A DNA stretch of 64,000 bases, from the NCBI GenBank assembly GCA_000004985.1, contig GG738865.1. The stretch is one strand, 5' to 3'. This DNA is from Naegleria gruberi (lineage: Eukaryota). The position numbers were made by a program, and so were the translations under genes. Numbering within the stretch: the stretch's first letter is position 1; every line of letters begins with the position of its first letter. Below are positions 43,315 through 52,300 of the stretch, piece by piece. Below the pieces are notes generated by a model that saw only the letters and a program-made list of their open reading frames with translations, was not told the origin of the DNA and did not search any database.

Positions 43315-44826
43315 TCAGAGTTGATATTCGGAAAATTCAAAACTGAATGGCTCCTTTTCAACAATCATTGAGCCAATTTCATCATTGTCAAGTAATGATT
43401 CGTAACATACTGAAAGACAACAAATACTCTTCAATTTATCCTTAGCACTGTTGAAAAAGATGGATGTGTAATAATTCTTGAAATTTTTCCTCTCGTTTGA
43501 TTTCTTCCACAACCTGACCTTCTTTAATACATGTCTCTCAATGGTATTCTCAATGAGGAGAGGAGATCCCACCATGAGGGAGTGGGAACTAGATGACACA
43601 CATCCATTGTATAAATAGTACAGTACTCTCATGGTGTGAATCAATATGAAATCAATGCTCAATAGATTATACTTGTCCAATTCATAAATCCACCTCGAAA
43701 CGATATGATTCAATACTTTAAAGTTTTTCTTTGGAGTTGGCTCGAGAGGTTGAGGGATTTCAAAATAGTTTGTATTCGATTGTTTGATAAATTTGGGTTG
43801 AATCCACATTGGTTTGAATCTGCCTTCAAATGTTGATATTAAAGACTTGGTTGCTCGTTTCATTCTAATCTTTTTCCAAATATCTGTTATGATTTCTTCC
43901 TCATTGCCACTACTGCCATTACTTCCACTTGATTCTTCTTCATCTTCGCTATCTTGTCTATTTGTATCAATTGTCTTCTTTTTGGCATTTGATAAAAAAT
44001 TCCAATCTTTTCTTTGGTCAACTGGAGAAGAATCAGTACTATTGGGAAAATTTAGTGTTTTTCTTCCTTTTTGAAAAGTTTCTGAATGGATAATCGTCCA
44101 ACAATTATCCTTTCGCTTTGACAATAGTATTGAATCCATTTTCAGTTCGACATCATTCATTGAAAAGAACCAATTTGACATGGTAATTTCACTCCAATCA
44201 CAACAAACTCCCTTCTTTAGTGCACTTCTAAAATCAATTTGTAAAAATTGAGGAATTGGGGCTGAAAATTGGGTTCTTTTCAATCCTCTTATCCAATTAG
44301 GTTCCGTAAAAAAAGACTTTTTATCCACCAACAAGGAACACTTATTAATTGAAAATAGGTAATTTGAAATCATGAGAGTGGCCTGTCTCCTCGTTCTCAG
44401 TTTTGTTTGACTTTTCAAATAAATTTCCAATTGTCTTTGTAAATTTAATTTAAATTCCTCCCTCAATTTAATATCCTCCAATGAGAGGGAATAATTCGGA
44501 TCATCATGAAATCTTTCATTTTGCTCACGATAATTAATTGATTTGTTATAGATAAACACCTGATTGGTGGGCACTAATTCCGAAATATAATTCCAAATAT
44601 TATCAGATAGATAGGGCCACAGAGAGTGAATATCATCCCTATTGATTTTATCATACCATTTATGACAGACAAGACTTGATTGAATTAAAATGGATGGTAG
44701 TGGTAGATAACTCAAAATACTATTGAATAATTCATCAATTTCAAATAAATGGTGCCAAAAGTTTTCCGAAAGGGTCAATTTTGTGGATAAACTTTTTGTC
44801 AAGTTTTTCATTTTTTTTAATTTCAA
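43315..44826 (-). CDS. F-box domain protein (503 aa)
   Basis: N-terminal LFEIDELFNSILSYLPLPSILIQSSLVCHKWYDKI is an F-box motif. The rest is unassigned. Confidence 0.55.
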   Translation of the reverse strand: MKLKKMKNLTKSLSTKLTLSENFWHHLFEIDELFNSILSYLPLPSILIQSSLVCHKWYDKINRDDIHSLWPYLSDNIWNYISELVPTNQVFIYNKSINYREQNERFHDDPNYSLSLEDIKLREEFKLNLQRQLEIYLKSQTKLRTRRQATLMISNYLFSINKCSLLVDKKSFFTEPNWIRGLKRTQFSAPIPQFLQIDFRSALKKGVCCDWSEITMSNWFFSMNDVELKMDSILLSKRKDNCWTIIHSETFQKGRKTLNFPNSTDSSPVDQRKDWNFLSNAKKKTIDTNRQDSEDEEESSGSNGSSGNEEEIITDIWKKIRMKRATKSLISTFEGRFKPMWIQPKFIKQSNTNYFEIPQPLEPTPKKNFKVLNHIVSRWIYELDKYNLLSIDFILIHTMRVLYYLYNGCVSSSSHSLMVGSPLLIENTIERHVLKKVRLWKKSNERKNFKNYYTSIFFNSAKDKLKSICCLSVCYESLLDNDEIGSMIVEKEPFSFEFSEYQL

Positions 44827-45011
44827 AATTAAAATTGAAAATCAAATATGAAATGTCAATGTTTTAGAAAGGCATAGCATGCTAGTGTCAAAAATAAACC
44901 AGAGTTAGAAATCTGTACGCTGGCTGGGTCAAAAATAGCATTTTTCTATAGTAAAGTTAATTAGGTAGCAATGTTATTTGACATAAATAGTTTTTGAATA
45001 ATAAACAAGAA

Positions 45012-45083
45012 TCCCGTGTGGTCCAATGGCTAAGATACCTGGCTCTCACCCAGGAGATCCGGGTTCAATTCCCGGCACGGGAG
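45012..45083 (+). tRNA. trnE-CUC: tRNA-Glu (anticodon CUC), 72 nt
   Basis: TCCCGTG/CACGGGA acceptor stem; anticodon stem CCTGG/CCAGG; loop CTCTCAC (CUC at positions 34-36, U33, A37); T-arm CCGGG-TTCAATT-CCCGG. The layout is nearly superimposable on known eukaryotic tRNA-Glu(CTC). No intron. Confidence 0.9.
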
Positions 45084-45374
45084 GATTCATTTTTGCTGGC
45101 CTTCGTTTTTCATTCTCATGCTGCTTTTGCATTATCAATACTGCAATAATATAAATAAAGTCTTTTTTCAAATCATTTTGCAACTACTAGTACTAGTAAG
45201 TTAAATTAGTACTACGCACAAATATTCCAAAATCAAGTCATCTTGACTCATATCAAATATTTCAAATAGTAACAAAAACCGAAATTCATAGACCACATCA
45301 ATTTTCGCTTCCTCCACAAGTAGCACTTTCCACAAGTTCTCAATTATGTTGGGTCAGTCATCATCTTTAAAAAA

Positions 45375-46695
45375 AATGGCAACTAAAGTAACCGAAACTC
45401 TTGTTGTGCTTTTGTTGTTATTCTTCGCTACTGCTTCTGGCATTAACGCATCATCACCTGCGGAGCCAGCATTCAAAAGTCAATTACGTTCATGTTTTGA
45501 AGCAAATAGAAATACCGAATGTTTGGCCACACAATCATCTTGGTCTTCATGTGGAGGTTCAGTTTATTCTTCATATCAACTTGCACTCTCCATCTCAATG
45601 AATTGTATGAGAAGTGTCTGTGGAAGTCAAAATAGTTTATGTTGCAATACCTATTGTACAATGTATGGTTTATCTGGATATGATCATTCAGTTTGTTTCA
45701 ATAAGTGTTTCAATGGATATACTGGTTCAGTTGTTGGTGCTGCAACTTTGATGAAAACAATCAAGAGTAGTTTGGATACCAATGTTGATTATGTTCCTCC
45801 TGCCACAGCTCAAAAGAAGGACGATGAAACCAAAGTCTATTGTGATATTCCATGTAATTCAGAATTTGCTTTCTATTCCACAACTGGTAAACAACCAAGT
45901 ATTTTAAATGGTGGTTTGAAGGCATTGTTGGCTTCTAATACCAAGACTAATACTTTGGCTGCTAAGAAAAAGCTCATTTCTTCTTGGTCAACCAAGGTTG
46001 GTTCCTCTAAGCCATCATCCTCATCCTCCTCCTCACGTAAGAGCATCAGCAGCATTAAAAGCATCATTGGAAGAAGTAATAGTGGTTACAACAAGGCCAT
46101 TTCAAAGAGCATCTCAAAATACCTTGGCTTCAAACCAGTTAAACAAATTAATAGTGATCTGGTCTATAAGAGACTTGTTAAATTTGTTTCAAGCATTCCA
46201 AGTCTTGGATACATCTTGAGAGGTATTCGTGATAAGAAAACCAGAACCTACCTTACAAGAGGTTACAAATTCATTCAAGCTGCTAGAAAACAAGTCTATC
46301 CACAAAAAGCATTTGCAATCTATGATGGTAAAGTATTGAATGTGAAAGCCACAGTTCAATTGGGTAATCCAGCATTGGTTAAGCAGAGAAGTACCATTTT
46401 CCCAATTCCATTCAATTCATTGACTCCATCTTCACTTTCAAAGAAATCCTTTTTCAATTCCAGTGTTAAACATAATCAAATCTGTACTGGTACAGCTATT
46501 GCCAAAGTGGAATATTATCGTAGATCTCGTATCACTTGTAAAAAGATCAAGTCATGGATTAGTGGAGCTTCAAAGATTAATCCAAAGAATATTTATCAAG
46601 TCAACAAGTTCCTCTTCCTTGTTTATAATCAATGTAAGAAAGCTAAAGCTACTTGTGTTGTTCCATTTGTTGAAGCAATCAAAACAACTGATTAA
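45375..46695 (+). CDS. secreted cysteine-rich modular protein, paralog A (signal peptide, 10-Cys N-terminal domain, Ser/Lys-rich linker, 4-Cys C-terminal domain)
   Basis: ATG 45375. Signal-like MATKVTETLVVLLLLFFATASGINA. N-terminal domain SSPAEPAFKSQLRSCFEANRNTECLATQSSWSSCGGSVYSSYQLALSISMNCMRSVCGSQNSLCCNTYCTMYGLSGYDHSVCFNKCFNGYTGSVV is shared with the paralogs at 46905 and 47970(-). The C-terminal Cys module (QICTGTAIAKVEYYRRSRITCKKIKSW...CVVPF) is also shared. Confidence 0.7.
45440..45735. repeat. left arm of an inverted repeat (about 290 nt, about 98% identical to 48715-49010 in reverse orientation), coincident with the 5' coding region of paralog A
   Basis: By-eye alignment of 45451-45731 with the reverse complement of 48721-49010 shows only about 5 mismatches, all at synonymous third positions. 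Mirror-image antisense ORFs in the track (45473-45661 - and 48797-48985 +) are near-identical, which confirms the repeat. Confidence 0.8.
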
Positions 46696-46904
46696 ATTTT
46701 TGTAATTCAATAACTTTTTACAAATATAATATTAATAATATTGAAAAATACTTATTACAATTACAGGTCTGTTACAAAATCTTTTAATGGATAGGAATAG
46801 CATTTTTAAAATACTCGCTCAAACTATATGCAAATTAAACAGTGTACTTTTCACCAAATGTGTATGTGACTCAAAACATCCAACTGTCACACCAGTAAAA
46901 AAAA

Positions 46905-47894
46905 ATGACATTGTCATCCAAACAAATTGTCGTTGTGTTAATTATTGTTGGATTCTGTGTTTCTTACACATTGGCTTCTTCTGCCAGCGAACCAGCATTC
47001 AAAAGTCAATTACGTTCATGTTTTGAAGGAAACAGAAACACAGAATGCATAGTCAATCAAGGAAGCTGGAATTCTTGTGGTCGTTCAGTTTATTCTTCCT
47101 ATCAATTAGCTGTTTCCATTTCAATGAATTGTATGAGAAGTGTTTGTGGTAGTCAAAATGGTTTATGTTGTAATACTTATTGTTCAATGTTTGGTTTATC
47201 TGGAAGTGATCATTCGAATTGTTTCTCCTCATGTTATAATTCATACAGGCCATCGACAAATGGTGGTTCATCTTTTGGTGGAAATATTCCTGCAGCTAGT
47301 GATGCTTTAACTGGTTCTGTATCTTGTTCTATTCCATGCGCTGCTGCTTTCTCCTTCTATGAAAATAAAGTAGCCGAAAGTGTGGCCAAAAAACCAGCAG
47401 AAGTCAAGACATTCAAAACTTTGGTCAAGAATTTACAATCTGGCAAACCAATCAAAAAATCAAATCCTGGCTACACAATCACCTCTGCCAAGACTTTGTC
47501 AACCAGCAGCCCTAGTTCTGCAACCTATTTCACAGCACTTAAACCAAAAGTTGTCCTGAAGGGAAGTGAACATAATCAAGTCTTACGTACCTCTATTGAA
47601 GAAGCTGTTCCAACAAACTTGGACTCGGCTCAATTTTACAATTCTCAAGTGGCATCCAATCAAATTTGTTCCAATTCAATGAAAGATGTTGTAAAGGTTT
47701 CAATTTTGAAGAATACCAAAATTGAATGTTCTAAATTGTTGCAATGGATTAAGAATGATAAGACAATTGCTCCTGAAAATTTGGAAAATGTTTATAATTT
47801 CATGTTGGTTTTGCATCAAAAGTGTTCTGCTTTGCCAAATAGTAAATGTGTCATGCCAAATGTTGGATCCATCAAGCTCACTAACACTAAATAA
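46905..47894 (+). CDS. secreted cysteine-rich modular protein, paralog B (329 aa)
   Basis: Signal-like MTLSSKQIVVVLIIVGFCVSYTLA. Same N-terminal Cys domain, more diverged (SASEPAFKSQLRSCFEGNRNTECIVNQGSWNSCGRSVYSSYQLAVSISMNCMRSVCGSQNGLCCNTYCSMFGLSGSDHSNCF). The C-terminal module is also shared (QICSNSMKDVVKVSILKNTKIECSKLLQW...CVMPN). Confidence 0.7.
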   Translation: MTLSSKQIVVVLIIVGFCVSYTLASSASEPAFKSQLRSCFEGNRNTECIVNQGSWNSCGRSVYSSYQLAVSISMNCMRSVCGSQNGLCCNTYCSMFGLSGSDHSNCFSSCYNSYRPSTNGGSSFGGNIPAASDALTGSVSCSIPCAAAFSFYENKVAESVAKKPAEVKTFKTLVKNLQSGKPIKKSNPGYTITSAKTLSTSSPSSATYFTALKPKVVLKGSEHNQVLRTSIEEAVPTNLDSAQFYNSQVASNQICSNSMKDVVKVSILKNTKIECSKLLQWIKNDKTIAPENLENVYNFMLVLHQKCSALPNSKCVMPNVGSIKLTNTK

Positions 47895-47969
47895 ATTGTG
47901 GATCTATCAATTAATAACTAATTTTTATTAGAAAGCACCCAAATCATAAATTTCCAAAATAAAATTATT

Positions 47970-49087
47970 TTAAAGAGTGTCAGTATTCAAATTAATTCTT
48001 CTAAACATTGGAACAACACATTGTTTAGACTTCTTTGGAATGAGAGATCTACACTTATTATGAACAATCATCATGAATTTGTAAACAGTAAGCAAATTAT
48101 TTGGTGAAATTTCTGAAACTTCCTTCATCCAACGTTGAATCTTGTTACAATTTACTCTAGATCTCTTATAATAGGTAACTTCAACTGTCTTTCCAGTATT
48201 GGCACAGATTTGATTTTTACCAACTTGGCTGCTTTTCAAAACGGGATTCAAAGGGACAACCTTATCAAGTGAAATGTCAAAAACTTGAAGTCTGTCACGA
48301 GTTACTTGAATAACATTGGAAATCATCTTTTTATCAGTTTTTCCTGATGATTTAGAGGTTGATTTAGTGACCTTTCCATTCTTAATAGTTGTGAGTTTAG
48401 TTTTTTTCACAAAAGACGAAATGAAAAGTTTCTTCTTTTTGCCCAATACTGAAACTCCACCATTTCCACTTGCTGTTCCAGTAGTACTATTTGAACCATT
48501 AATTTGAGAAAGGAGAGTTCTCAAGAAATTTCTTTCCTTTCTTGTTGGTTGTTCATTGGCAAAATAAAAAGCATAAGTAGCATCACATGAAACAGAACAT
48601 TTGACAATGGCTTTATCATCAGTGGTGGCACTTTTTGGAACAAAGTCAGAGTTATCATCGAATGGGATGGAAGCATAAGCAATAGAAGTAGAAATTGGTT
48701 TCATCAAAGTTGCAGCAGCAGAAACAACTGAACCAGTATATCCATTGAAACACTTATTGAAACAAACTGAATGATCATATCCAGATAAACCATACATTGT
48801 ACAATAAGTATTGCAACATAAACTATTTTGACTTCCACAAACACTTCTCATACAATTCATTGAAATGGAGAGTGCAAGTTGATATGAAGAATAAACTGAA
48901 CCTCCACATGAAGACCAAGATGATTGTGTGGCTAAACATTCGGTATTTCTATTTGCTTCAAAACATGAACGTAATTGACTTTTGAATGCTGGTTCCGCTG
49001 GAGATGATGCATTGACAAAAGATGAAGATGTGAGAAGGGCTGCCAACAAGACGAAACATGCCAAAACTAGTGGATTGAATCTTGTCA
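47970..49087 (-). CDS. secreted cysteine-rich modular protein, paralog C (about 372 aa from ATG MTRFNPLVLACFVLL...)
   Basis: Signal-like start MTRFNPLVLACFVLLAALLTSSSFVNA. The N-terminal domain protein sequence is identical to paralog A. The linker has diverged. The C-terminal module is shared (QICANTGKTVEVTYYKRSRVNCNKIQRW...CVVPM). Confidence 0.7.
48715..49010. repeat. right arm of the inverted repeat (partner of 45440-45735)
   Basis: See left arm. It lies in the 5' coding region of minus-strand paralog C. Confidence 0.8.
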
Positions 49088-49305
49088 TTATTTTTTTTAA
49101 GCTTTCTTCAAAGATGTCACCCACAAGAACACTGACACAATCAAAATGGGTAAATTTGTCAAAAAAAATTTAACACACTAAATATCTTATAACCATCACC
49201 CGTCAATATTATTATTCGAATCCAATGAACATTCAAAGAGAGATGAAAGAAATTAAAGGGAACTTGCAAGTGAAAAGTTCCCGCCAAAAATAACTACAAA
49301 AAAAA

Positions 49306-52300
49306 ATGAGTAAAAACATATGGTTGCCGCCACTTTCGCTATCATCTCTGCAGAGAAATGATGGGAAGAACATCATGTTTGACACTCAGAAAGTAATCAA
49401 GCCGACCACCTGGTTGTATATAATGATGATACTGCTGATATTGTTAATGAATAGTGGAGGAGTTGTGAGATGTGGAAATGTTGTGGAAGTGGATGCTGAG
49501 GAAGTGAGGCAGTTGGATTTATATTTGAAAAAATCAAAACCTGATTTGGAAAATTCTCAGCTAGCTTTATTGGCATTTAAGGAGACGAGTCAAATGCTTA
49601 TACTCACCAAGACATTGTCATCCTTGTCCATCACACCAAGAACAATATTTTACTCTGCAGGGTTTATCGGAAATACTATTGTTCAATTGAATGCAAGTGA
49701 AATCAAATTCACCTCCTTGGCTAATGTATTTAACAATTCAACAAGACCATACAAAGTTGTTGATAGGCTTACATCATTATGCTCTTCTACTCTTTCTCAA
49801 TTATATCAGAACAACACCTTTATTCCAAATTATTATATTTGTTTTTTCAAAACAACACTCACATCAGAGAATAGAGTTTTCTTCTCAACAACAAGTGAAG
49901 GATTCAGATGTTTAAAACTAAATTCGGATGGGGATGTAATAACCAAGGATGTTTCTAAGGGATTTATTGAAGATTTTGCTACCTCATTATGTGTTATAAC
50001 CATAATATTTATAGCCCTTCTGTGGGTACAAGGATCATTTAAAAGGAGAATTATTGATACAAAGAGATATCCCTTTACCAATTATTACTTTGGAAACGAT
50101 ACTGATTGGAACTCTTCAACTTTTTCGGATCTTTCAGTAACTCTTAGACCAATATTTCCATTCTTTAAACATTTTTCCAATCAGTTTGACAAGCTTTATA
50201 AACTGATATTCAGATCAATTCAAAACAAAGTGGACCAGGAACATATTAGGAAGTATAAGAAATTTGGCTCTTCAACACTGCTGAAATACCAATTATTCTT
50301 CGACTTTTTCCTCTTTATAGTTATTAGTTGCTTATCAATGGTGCAGTTATTTGTTCCTTCTGTACTATATTTCCCAAATTTTATTCAAATACCTATTAAT
50401 TTTGACCTTGGGAATGACGAAACCTTCACAAGTTATTGGATAGGAGGGGCTGATTTTGTACCTATCAGTTTGGGTTTTTGGTTAATATCCCTCACTTTGA
50501 TGATATTGGGAATAATTTTGTTAATAGTTACTTCTAGTTCAAAAGAAAAGATGATGTATTGGAGCACAAACTCTTTGCCAGACACCAACATTTTGGTTTT
50601 CACTGATGCAATCTTCAAAATTATTTTCATAGTCTTGATTAATGTGATAATCATTTTACTACCGTTCTGGACATTTACCATTAAGGGAGTTCTTATGGTG
50701 GTTATTACAATAGCATCTATTTTCTATGGGAGTCAACAAATTTTAATTCCAACAGAGAAGGTTATTCACGCTATTCATGATGGAAATTATAAGATGGTTG
50801 TTGCCTTCTTGATGTTTGCATATTTTAAGGAACTTCTAGTGATCATACCATTTTTTATTCAGATATTCATGGTGGCCGAAACTATATTTGGGCTAGTTTG
50901 GAGCTTGATTCTTTCCTTTGTTGCAAACAACAGCAAGCTTTCCTTGATTGGTATTTTTGGTATTGTAATTAATTCTGCAACAAGTTTACTTCAAGACTTA
51001 CTACAGCCATCCAGAGTTACCAGGAAAAAGATTGTGGAAAGGTCAGATACATTCGTTTTTCCCTCTCTAACAAAGACCAGCACACAATTCATCCTTGATA
51101 ATGTCGCTGCAAAATATGGTGGCATTATTAATACCTACTCTAAACTGGTAGAAAGTAATGAGATGGTGGATTATACATACAAGGATATTCTCTCATTAAA
51201 TGACAACTTGGAAGAACTTAAGGACATTACAAGAAAAAGAAGTCAGTCTGTTGGAAAATCTGAAAACGGTGAAGCTAAGCTAGCAGCAACAACTATTGAA
51301 AAAATTCACAACCCTGTTAACATCAAATTCGAAAAAAATGAAGACAAAAACGAAGAGGAGCTAAAAACAAGATATACGGAGATCAATGATAGGCCAAAGT
51401 ACATGCATGTTCTCTTCAAGAAAGAAATTGCCTTACTCGTTAGAGGCATCTTCCTTTCAACGCAAGAGAAGAAAAATGAAAAATTGAGAGTAATCTTTAA
51501 GAGAGGAGAGAGGCTTTATACTCCATTGTTGAATACAGACATCAGAAGAATCCATCACAATTTAGTGGGTAGAGTCAAGATAGCAACAGGAAATCTGAGT
51601 AATTATTTAGTAGTAATTTTGATTGCAATGATTATTTTCTTGTCTTTTACTTATTCTGGTGCTGAAAGTGATGGTATGGACATTATGTCAAATATGGCTA
51701 TTGTTATTTCAATCTTTATTCCACAACTTTTTGGAAGATTGGATGAAGGACAAGTTGATGAACTATTCGAAAGAAGAATTGAGGAAACTATCCTTTTAAC
51801 CAAGAGAGATCTTGCAAAGAAACTTGACTTACCAGAGAAGGATCTCAATTTTTGCATTTTCAATTTTCAAAACGATTCAGATATTAGTAACTTTTTAGAG
51901 CACAACACCCCAGCAGTGTCTGAAACTATTGGAAGAAAAATGTAAGTATATTTTAACGAATTGTTTTACTTGAATCAAATGAAAGATTGGAACATTGGGA
52001 AAGTGCTTCAACAAATGGATTTATTACAGCTCAAAAATTCAAGCCACTCATGCTTATTGTATGGGATGAAACCCTTAAAATCAATGCAAAGAAGGGCACT
52101 GCTTCCGCTACAAATGACTATCTCAAGACTCATAGCCAATTCTTGACATCATTTTCAAACATAATTTATTGTATTAGTAATTTTGAGGCTGACTCCTTTG
52201 TGAGTGCTTACGAATTCATTCACGCTGTGGAGCTTCTCAAAAAATCAATCACAAGAAAGGAAGAAGATCAATGCTCAGATATGGATATAACATTTGCATT

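What the first reader, a model, noticed from the sequence alone, without database searches (positions are those of the whole stretch)
45440..49010. Near-identical inverted repeat (about 290 nt, about 98% identity) inside the 5' coding regions of the two outer paralogs
The first about 100 codons of paralog A (+) and paralog C (-) encode identical protein. At nucleotide level they differ at only about 5 positions over about 290 nt, all synonymous third positions. This contrasts with the strongly diverged paralog B between them and the diverged linkers. Such an arrangement implies ongoing gene conversion between the arms or very strong purifying selection. It also creates a substrate for inversion of the 3.3-kb segment containing paralog B. 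The antisense mirror ORFs in the track (45473-45661 - and 48797-48985 +) are artefacts of this repeat.
Basis: seen in the sequence. Interest (0 to 1): 0.6.

Follow-up and report, generated by a model that had tools for sequence, protein, structure and literature searches.

The report
Gene-converted inverted repeat in Naegleria paralogs
Two oppositely oriented copies of a small Naegleria gruberi secreted-protein gene family share a ~300-base stretch that one copy has overwritten in the other (gene conversion), an ordinary process; less ordinary is that the copied protein domain is about 68% identical to small secreted proteins of bacteria.

Summary
The inverted repeat is real. Its arms are 45445-45743 and 48715-49013 (299 nt, 97%) and extend to 317/320 nt with one 3-nt indel. 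The window is Naegleria gruberi. The arms encode 97 identical residues, the mature cysteine-rich N-domain of outer paralogs A (+) and C (-). The signal peptides are not included and have diverged.

The arms differ at 8 positions, not about 5. All 8 are synonymous third positions. In the arms dN = 0 and dS = 0.14, against dS of 1-1.9 in the signal-peptide, linker and C-terminal regions of the same gene pair. A Sawyer-type run test gives p <= 1e-4 for A-C only.

Best explanation: interlocus gene conversion confined to the only region with enough DNA similarity, followed by purifying selection. "Ongoing" conversion is not shown, because arm dS is 1.5-3 times the divergence (0.04) from an independent environmental strain. 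Inversion of the 2.97-kb spacer would keep both genes in frame, but no data here could test it.

In passing: the N-domain has ~115-aa stand-alone bacterial homologues, for example in Acidovorax lacteus (68% identity). In the five gene neighbourhoods inspected these lie beside an Lnt-like gene. The single N. lovaniensis orthologue is only 43% identical, which suggests inter-domain gene transfer. The repeat is a new member of a known kind, of modest interest.

The parts
45445..45761 (+). Inverted-repeat arm 1: mature cysteine-rich N-domain of paralog A (ungapped core 45445-45743; the 97 identical codons are 45445-45735)
48694..49013 (-). Inverted-repeat arm 2: mature cysteine-rich N-domain of paralog C (ungapped core 48715-49013; the 97 identical codons are 49013-48723)
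45376..46695 (+). Paralog A (P0001, XP_002677700, NAEGRDRAFT_67035, 439 aa): signal peptide, N-domain, Ser/Lys-rich disordered linker, 4-Cys C-terminal domain. The mechanical ORF starts at 45346.
46905..47894 (+). Paralog B (P0003, XP_002677701, 329 aa, labelled 'nucleoporin' in the source). Its N-domain at 46971-47261 is 83-85% identical in DNA to the arms over about 240-250 nt.
47970..49088 (-). Paralog C (P0002, XP_002677800, NAEGRDRAFT_48735, 372 aa), tail to tail with B. The mechanical ORF extends to a GTG at 49124.
45744..48714 (.). The 2971-nt segment between the arms: the 3' two-thirds of A, all of B, and the 3' two-thirds of C. It would be inverted by a crossover between the arms.
   Evidence: inference
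45473..45661 (-). Antisense 62-aa ORF inside arm 1, a by-product of the repeat
48797..48985 (+). Antisense 62-aa ORF inside arm 2, mirror of the one in arm 1

Best explanation
The window is nuclear DNA of Naegleria gruberi. It carries a three-gene cluster (A +, B +, C -) of a small family of secreted proteins. Each protein has a signal peptide, a helical cysteine-rich N-domain of about 95 aa, a disordered Ser/Lys-rich linker and a 4-Cys C-terminal domain.

The paralogs are old, with synonymous sites saturated outside the N-domain. The N-domain of A and C was homogenised by non-reciprocal homologous recombination (interlocus gene conversion) between the two oppositely oriented genes.

Inferred: the tract is limited to the N-domain because selection has kept enough DNA similarity for heteroduplex formation only there. 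B is still 83-85% identical there, whereas the signal-peptide and linker DNA is essentially unalignable. This makes conversion self-reinforcing and gives the sharp edges.

Since the last conversion, 8 substitutions have accumulated, all silent. The N-domain protein sequence is therefore under strong purifying selection.

A side effect is a 0.3-kb, 97% inverted repeat that could mediate inversion of the 3-kb spacer. Both arms encode the same protein in the same frame. Such an inversion would exchange promoter plus signal peptide between the two different linker/C-terminal halves and flip B without breaking any reading frame.

Shown: the repeat, the dS contrast, the selection signature. Inferred: the conversion mechanism and why the tract is bounded. 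Untested: inversion.
For: - Repeat geometry and significance.
- Organism and gene models. Eukaryotic neighbours (F-box, TTL, Myb, EIPR1/WD40).
- Per-region divergence: A-C N-domain dN 0, dS 0.14, third-position identity 0.92. Signal peptide dS 1.9, linker 1.7, C-domain 0.98, with third-position identity 0.35-0.49. Fisher test on third positions, N-domain versus C-domain, p = 5e-10.
- Same-codon use for A-C is 0.92 against 0.47 expected from window codon usage.
- Sawyer-type longest-run permutation test: A-C run of 29 polymorphic sites, p <= 1e-4. A-B and B-C are not significant.
- All 8 differences are synonymous. With 21% of possible single changes synonymous, P = 4e-6.
- Differences cluster at the 5' edge, and an indel plus a mismatch lie at the 3' edge. 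I read this as consistent with staggered or patchy conversion tract ends.
- An independent metagenome contig, L010, is 97.9% identical over window 46434-48486 and has the same A-3'/B/C-3' layout. The interior of the cluster is therefore not peculiar to one assembly.
Against: - There is only one assembly of the arms themselves. No read-level or population data are available.
- The single-copy N. lovaniensis orthologue gives no outgroup for dating the A/C split independently of conversion.
- At 6 of the 8 A/C differences B agrees with C and never with A, and all six A states are G or C. A simple 'convert, then drift equally' model does not predict this asymmetry (two-sided P about 0.03).
- A-B and B-C N-domain dS (0.86, 0.62) is also somewhat below the rest of those pairs. 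Part of the low dS could therefore reflect codon constraint or older conversion.
Confidence: 0.85

Rival explanations
1. Purifying selection alone: A and C N-domains are identical only because the protein, or an overlapping RNA or antisense element, tolerates no change. No DNA was exchanged.
For: All 8 differences are silent. The N-domain is the most conserved part of the family, even across to bacteria. B also shares more codons with A than expected, 0.70 against 0.49.
Against: Protein-level selection does not preserve synonymous sites. dS is 0.14 for A-C against 0.62-0.86 for the equally constrained B N-domain and 1-1.9 elsewhere. The antisense ORF translations change at four residues although every underlying nucleotide difference is silent in the sense frame. 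The run test is significant only for A-C.
Confidence: 0.03
2. Recent inverted duplication of a whole gene, followed by very fast divergence of everything except the N-domain.
For: A and C are the most similar pair in the linker and C-domain as well (35% and 45% aa identity against 25-42% for pairs with B).
Against: Synonymous sites outside the N-domain are saturated (dS 1-1.9), and fast protein evolution cannot cause that. The transition from 97% to unalignable DNA happens within a few codons at both edges.
Confidence: 0.03
3. Assembly artefact: one arm was pasted in by mis-assembly of reads or haplotypes.
For: The arms themselves are seen in a single assembly only.
Against: Each arm continues in frame into different unique sequence on both sides and yields an intact gene. 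The arms differ at 8 sites plus a 3-nt indel. The interior layout is reproduced in an independent metagenome contig. From general knowledge, not checked here: the assembly is Sanger-based, and a 0.3-kb repeat is shorter than such reads.
Confidence: 0.03
4. The repeat is maintained because it works as a recombination switch. Recurrent inversion between the arms swaps promoter and signal peptide between two alternative linker/C-domain 'bodies' and flips B, giving two expression states.
For: The geometry allows it. The arms are in inverted orientation, encode identical protein in the same frame, and flank 2971 nt. Gene conversion and crossover share intermediates. Rare inversions accompany arm-to-arm conversion in Y-chromosome palindromes (PMC3723533 abstract).
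Against: No isomer was observed. No chimeric A/C protein exists in 5.8 billion clustered proteins. No recombinase-like gene was found among the neighbours scanned. 97% identity over 0.3 kb is a weak substrate. Nothing requires selection for inversion.
Confidence: 0.05

Closest known systems
Interlocus (ectopic) gene conversion between closely linked paralogs, e.g. the C. elegans hsp16 inverted modules, hsp70 adjacent inverted genes and fog-2/ftr-1 (review PMC3966223)
   Same: Non-reciprocal homogenisation of part of a coding region between nearby paralogs, in direct or inverted orientation. Tracts are of the order of 100 nt and longer, and the process depends on pre-existing sequence identity. 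It is detected the same way, as a block of identity between diverged flanks.
   Different: The organism is a heterolobosean amoeba. The tract coincides with one protein domain of a family with no known function. A third, unconverted paralog sits between the two partners.
Arm-to-arm gene conversion in large palindromes (human Y palindrome P6; PMC3723533)
   Same: Inverted-repeat arms are kept similar by intrachromosomal conversion, with rare inversions of the spacer as a by-product. A GC bias of conversion is reported there, and G/C states are over-represented in one arm here.
   Different: Y palindrome arms exceed 99.9% identity (abstract) and, from general knowledge, span tens to hundreds of kb. 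Here the arms are 0.3 kb, 97% identical and purely coding, so conversion is older or rarer.
Domain- or exon-restricted concerted evolution in receptor families (CEA/CEACAM family; PMC7042247)
   Same: Conversion acts on some parts of the paralogs and not others, and selection decides which converted tracts persist.
   Different: Those are vertebrate multi-exon Ig-domain genes. Here the genes are single-exon, the domain is a helical Cys-rich module, and the biological reason for keeping A and C identical is unknown.
Unnamed bacterial family of ~115-aa secreted Cys-rich proteins, encoded between a ~300-aa lipoprotein gene and an Lnt-like (apolipoprotein N-acyltransferase-like) gene (Acidovorax lacteus L003; metagenome loci L002, L004-L009)
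   Same: The repeated unit, the N-domain, is 63-74% identical to these proteins over its whole mature length, including the conserved N-terminus ASSPAEPAFKSQLRSCFE.
   Different: In Naegleria the domain is fused to a linker and a C-domain, has two extra cysteines, and has no Lnt-like or lipoprotein neighbour. No Pfam or NCBIfam model exists for it.

Membership tests
Interlocus gene conversion / concerted evolution of paralogs | A block of high DNA identity between paralogs with abrupt transition to diverged flanks | tested here: met
   97% over 299 nt; flanks about 40-46% identical, which is the random level
Interlocus gene conversion / concerted evolution of paralogs | Synonymous divergence in the block far below that in the rest of the same gene pair | tested here: met
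   dS 0.14 against 0.98-1.94; same-codon use 0.92 against 0.47 expected
Interlocus gene conversion / concerted evolution of paralogs | Statistically significant run of shared polymorphic sites (Sawyer/GENECONV-type test) | tested here: met
   A-C longest run 29, p <= 1e-4; A-B and B-C not significant
Interlocus gene conversion / concerted evolution of paralogs | Paralogs predate the homogenisation, i.e. orthologues in a sister taxon group by gene outside the tract and by species inside it | not testable with these tools
   The only other Naegleria homologue found, in N. lovaniensis, is single-copy
Interlocus gene conversion / concerted evolution of paralogs | Conversion still active (paralogous sequence variants shared or segregating among strains) | not testable with these tools
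   No second sequence of either arm was found; L010 stops short of both arms
Programmed DNA inversion switch (invertase or shufflon-like) | Inverted repeats flanking an invertible segment | tested here: met
   Arms flank 2971 nt. The arms are long coding sequence, not short recombinase sites.
Programmed DNA inversion switch (invertase or shufflon-like) | Dedicated site-specific recombinase encoded nearby | tested here: not met
   No recombinase domains in the 13 neighbouring ORFs scanned against Pfam; the organism is a eukaryote
Programmed DNA inversion switch (invertase or shufflon-like) | Both orientations present in a population | not testable with these tools
   No reads or alternative assemblies; no chimeric A/C protein in the databases
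Bacterial Lnt-operon small Cys-rich secreted protein family (unnamed) | Sequence homology over the whole mature domain | tested here: met
   68% identity, E = 1e-47 to Acidovorax lacteus; profile hits with E = 1e-33 to 1e-45
Bacterial Lnt-operon small Cys-rich secreted protein family (unnamed) | Stand-alone ~115-aa protein encoded next to an Lnt-like gene | tested here: not met
   In Naegleria the domain is fused to a linker and C-domain. There is no Lnt-like or lipoprotein homologue in the window or in L001.
Nucleoporin (the source's name for paralog B) | Nucleoporin domain or FG-repeat architecture | tested here: not met
   No Pfam hit at E <= 0.1. The N-terminus is hydrophobic and signal-peptide-like, the protein has extracellular-type Cys-rich domains, and its only homologues are this family.

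The most novel reading that the evidence does not exclude
The homogenised module is a domain exchanged between bacteria and Naegleria. The N. gruberi N-domains nest inside a clade of Comamonadaceae-type bacterial proteins with 94% bootstrap support. The N. lovaniensis orthologue groups with a different, distant bacterial subgroup at 99%, and Naegleria monophyly has 0% support. One reading is that the N. gruberi lineage acquired or re-acquired the domain from bacteria separately from N. lovaniensis, and that recombination between paralogs, of which the A/C conversion is the visible trace, spread it through the cluster. A still more speculative reading is that the in-frame inverted repeat is used as an inversion switch that re-pairs signal peptide and promoter with alternative C-terminal halves.
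Probability: 0.25. Interest if true: 0.6.

Novelty: new member of a known kind. Interest (0 to 1): 0.35.

Why it matters
The repeat itself is a textbook-style case of domain-restricted gene conversion. It is useful mainly as a caution for annotation and phylogeny of this family. N-domain trees will not reflect gene history, and the antisense ORFs are spurious.

It also marks a place where N. gruberi assemblies could differ by a 3-kb inversion.

The wider point is the identity of the unit being homogenised. It is a strongly constrained, secreted Cys-rich domain shared at about 68% identity with bacterial proteins that lie beside an Lnt-like acyltransferase gene in the five bacterial loci inspected. 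That is a candidate inter-domain gene transfer. It links an orphan amoeba protein family to a bacterial operon in which function could be studied experimentally.

Tried and rejected
- Pfam on A, B and C: no hits. NCBIfam on the bacterial homologue and its neighbours: only the Lnt-like gene is recognised, at 131 bits, just under the 132.9-bit cut-off.
- Looked for other assemblies of the arms to test inversion and artefact. The exact-protein look-up of B found nothing on record. A scan of JGI metagenomes with N-domain peptide patterns found no relative. The one independent contig, L010, ends before both arms.
- Tested whether the linker or C-domain derives from the bacterial operon neighbours: no similarity. 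Tested whether Lnt-like or lipoprotein homologues occur in the window or in the N. lovaniensis locus: none.
- Literature: no paper mentions the three gene or protein identifiers. Nothing relevant on Naegleria/Acidovorax gene transfer.
- The first genome-contig query with a too-diverse alignment failed. It was repeated with a narrower alignment.
- No other long repeats or extra family copies exist in the window.
Full report
**1. The observation**

The repeat finder on 44000-50500 reports one outstanding inverted repeat. Its arms are 45445-45743 and 48715-49013: 299 nt, 97% complementary, 2971 nt apart. Gapped blastn extends the match across a 3-nt indel to 45445-45761 / 48694-49013, with 307 of 320 identities and E about 1e-146 to 1e-149. 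A self-comparison of the whole 64-kb window finds no other long repeat. The only other matches are the 83-85% matches of both arms to a third copy at about 46974-47225. The repeat is therefore real and far beyond chance.

**2. Where it sits**

- The window is 34% G+C.
- The three ORFs involved are identical to three Naegleria gruberi proteins on one 820-kb scaffold:
  - A = P0001 / XP_002677700, 439 aa, window 45376-46695 (+)
  - B = P0003 / XP_002677701, 329 aa, window 46905-47894 (+)
  - C = P0002 / XP_002677800, 372 aa, window 47970-49088 (-)
- The neighbours are ordinary eukaryotic genes: F-box, tubulin-tyrosine-ligase, Myb and EIPR1/WD40 proteins. A tRNA-Glu(CTC) lies at 45012-45083.
- The three proteins share one architecture: a hydrophobic signal peptide, a Cys-rich N-domain of about 95 aa, a short conserved C-x3-C...FY motif, a variable Ser/Lys-rich linker, and a C-terminal domain of about 75 aa with four Cys.
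- They have no Pfam match.

**3. Exact anatomy of the repeat**

- The arms start one codon before the conserved mature N-terminus (N-ASSPAEPAFKSQ...) and end just after ...NGYTGSVV.
- Over 97 codons (45445-45735 / 49013-48723) the proteins are identical. The DNA differs at 8 positions, all third-position and synonymous, with 6 transitions and 2 transversions.
- Four of the eight lie in the first 21 nt, so the remaining 270 nt are 98.5% identical.
- Beyond the 3' end of the identical block there is a G/SA indel, then 23 nt with one mismatch, then no similarity.
- The signal-peptide codons are not part of the repeat: 26% aa and 41% nt identity.
It is wrong about 'the first 100 codons' and undercounts the differences.

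**4. Why the arms are so alike**

Nei-Gojobori estimates by region:

| Pair and region | dN | dS |
|---|---|---|
| A-C, N-domain | 0 | 0.14 |
| A-C, signal peptide | not quoted | 1.94 |
| A-C, linker | not quoted | 1.70 |
| A-C, C-domain | not quoted | 0.98 |
| A-B, N-domain | 0.21 | 0.86 |
| B-C, N-domain | 0.21 | 0.62 |

- Third-position identity in the N-domain (89 of 97) differs from that in the C-domain (36 of 73) with Fisher p = 5e-10.
- A and C use the same codon at 92% of positions, against 47% expected from codon usage in long ORFs of the window.
- A Sawyer-type permutation test on 469 polymorphic sites gives a longest A-C run of 29 (p <= 1e-4; the maximum in 10,000 permutations was 16). 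It gives nothing for A-B or B-C.
- Protein-level selection cannot freeze synonymous sites. A whole-gene recent duplication cannot leave saturated synonymous sites next door.
- The supported explanation is non-reciprocal recombination, that is interlocus gene conversion, restricted to the N-domain.
- After that event selection was strong. With 21% of possible single changes in the domain being synonymous, 8 of 8 silent has P about 4e-6.
- My inference on the sharp tract ends: the N-domain is the only segment where the paralogs retained enough DNA similarity for heteroduplex formation. B is still 83-85% identical there. Conversion is thus confined to it and reinforces itself.

**5. Is conversion ongoing?**

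- An independent metagenome contig (L010, ENA ERZ929261) matches window 46434-48486 at 97.9%. It has the same layout: 3' end of A, then B, then the 3' end of C on the opposite strand. For B it gives dS = 0.043 between strains.
- The arm divergence is 0.14 overall. For the core, with 4 differences in 90 codons, I estimate roughly 0.06-0.07. That is about 1.5-3 times the between-strain value.
- The last homogenisation is therefore not very recent, and 'ongoing' conversion is not demonstrated.
- L010 does not reach either arm. No other sequence of the arms was found.

**6. Inversion**

- A crossover between the arms would invert 45744-48714.
- Both arms encode the same residues in the same frame. 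The products would be two intact chimeric genes, A-promoter/signal/N-domain joined to C-linker/C-domain and the reverse, with B flipped.
- This is possible in principle and resembles the rare inversions seen with palindrome arm conversion (PMC3723533 abstract).
- Nothing here tests it. No chimeric protein exists in the protein databases, and no recombinase gene is nearby.
- I rate a selected 'switch' function as unlikely, about 5%.

**7. Antisense ORFs**

- The ORFs 45473-45661(-) and 48797-48985(+) are mirror images.
- The nucleotide differences that fall inside them are all silent in the sense frame. The two antisense translations nevertheless differ at four residues (three R/K, one P/L). 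This is the opposite of what a selected antisense gene would show.
- B has a comparable open antisense frame at 47053-47271(-), probably a codon-composition effect.

**8. An unexplained asymmetry**

- At 6 of the 8 A/C differences B has the C state and never the A state. All six A states are G or C against A or T in C and B.
- The changes are therefore either concentrated on A, all AT to GC in a 34% G+C genome, or they are remnants of patchy conversion.
- The sample is small, with two-sided P about 0.03. I leave this open.

**9. What the repeated unit is (noticed in passing, partly followed)**

- A profile search of 1.84 billion representatives finds only five further relatives. A second word-based profile search finds twelve proteins in all.
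- One is a full-length, intron-containing, single-copy homologue in Naegleria lovaniensis (P0005, L001 10001-11186). It lies in a loosely syntenic neighbourhood: the TTL and Myb genes at L001 1296-3254 match window 40717-38640.
- The others are proteins of about 64-145 aa, most about 114-116 aa.
- Every short homologue whose context I could inspect is bacterial: Acidovorax lacteus JCM 31890 and metagenome contigs at 48-67% G+C.
- Each sits in the same operon-like context, next to an Lnt-like apolipoprotein N-acyltransferase paralog and usually after a lipobox protein of about 300 aa.
- The A/C N-domain is 68% identical to the A. lacteus protein (E = 1e-47). It is only 43% identical to the N. 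lovaniensis orthologue.
- Bootstrapped NJ trees on 90 columns:
  - A+B+C group together at 97%.
  - N. gruberi groups with Comamonadaceae-type bacteria at 94%.
  - N. lovaniensis groups with two distant homologues at 99%. One of these (P0008) sits in a bacterial locus. The context of the other (P0006) was not inspected.
  - Naegleria monophyly is recovered in 0% of replicates.
- The bacterial members are diverse, down to about 30% identity, yet keep the Lnt-like neighbour. This argues that the family is at home in bacteria and that Naegleria obtained the domain by transfer.
- Whether that happened once with unequal rates, or twice, cannot be settled with about 90 positions and NJ.
- No homologue of the operon neighbours is found in the Naegleria loci. 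The linker and C-domain have no bacterial counterpart.

**10. Comparison with what is known**

- Mechanistically this is a standard case of interlocus gene conversion between linked paralogs. Such conversion is known in both orientations and with tracts of this size (review PMC3966223). It is akin on a small scale to arm-to-arm conversion in palindromes (PMC3723533) and to part-of-gene concerted evolution in receptor families (PMC7042247).
- In N. gruberi itself, exceptionally similar multi-copy alpha-tubulin genes were described long ago (PMC2115128 abstract).
- The finding is a new member of a known kind.
- The source's name 'nucleoporin' for B is not supported.

**11. Verdict**

Conversion plus purifying selection is supported, 'ongoing' is unproven, and inversion is possible but untested.
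- Interest in the repeat itself is low to moderate. The bacterial affinity of the converted domain is the more noteworthy lead.

Noticed in passing
window 45445-45735, 46971-47261, 48723-49013; loci L002 6233-6577, L003 6001-6348, L004 2126-2476, L006 340-777, L007 3651-4001: The N-domain has stand-alone ~115-aa homologues in bacteria (Acidovorax lacteus and metagenome contigs at 48-67% G+C). In the loci inspected they lie beside an Lnt-like acyltransferase gene, usually after a ~300-aa lipoprotein gene. Identity to N. gruberi is 63-74%, but only about 40% between N. gruberi and N. lovaniensis. NJ bootstrap never recovers Naegleria monophyly. This is a candidate inter-domain gene transfer whose direction and number of events are unresolved.
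   Followed up: partly
L001 10001-11186 (N. lovaniensis PYSW02000081.1): N. lovaniensis has a single full-length family member with an intron, near TTL and Myb genes that are also near the N. gruberi cluster. The three-gene cluster is therefore a N. gruberi-lineage expansion or a loss in N. lovaniensis. No N. fowleri homologue appeared in any search.
   Followed up: partly
window 45447-45651 versus 49011-48807 and B 46973-47177: At 6 of the 8 A/C differences B matches C and never A, and all six A states are G or C. This is an asymmetric, AT-to-GC pattern in a 34% G+C genome. It might be lineage-specific codon selection in A, biased repair, or patchy conversion.
   Followed up: partly
L010 1-2052 = window 46434-48486: An environmental metagenome contig (ENA ERZ929261, PRJEB11402) carries the same A-3'/B/C-3' segment at 97.9% identity. 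For B, dN is 0.009 and dS is 0.043. A close N. gruberi relative is therefore present in that sample.
   Followed up: yes
window 46905-47894: Paralog B is named 'nucleoporin' in NCBI/UniProt. It has a signal-peptide-like N-terminus, Cys-rich domains and no nucleoporin domain, so the name looks like a mis-annotation, probably prompted by the Ser-rich linker.
   Followed up: yes
window 45012-45083 (+): A tRNA-Glu(CTC) gene lies about 290 nt upstream of paralog A. The 51-aa ORF at 44994-45149 simply overlies it.
   Followed up: no
window 47053-47271 (-): Paralog B also has an open antisense frame (72 aa) across its N-domain, as do A and C. This is probably a codon-composition effect of the domain rather than a gene.
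   Followed up: partly
window 49306-51945 (+): An 879-aa ORF that looks like a multi-pass membrane protein, with no Pfam match, lies directly beside paralog C, divergently oriented.
   Followed up: no
L006 827-1906: In the most divergent bacterial locus, two extra small paralogous genes (137 and 218 aa, 33% identical to each other) lie between the Cys-rich protein gene and the Lnt-like gene.
   Followed up: no
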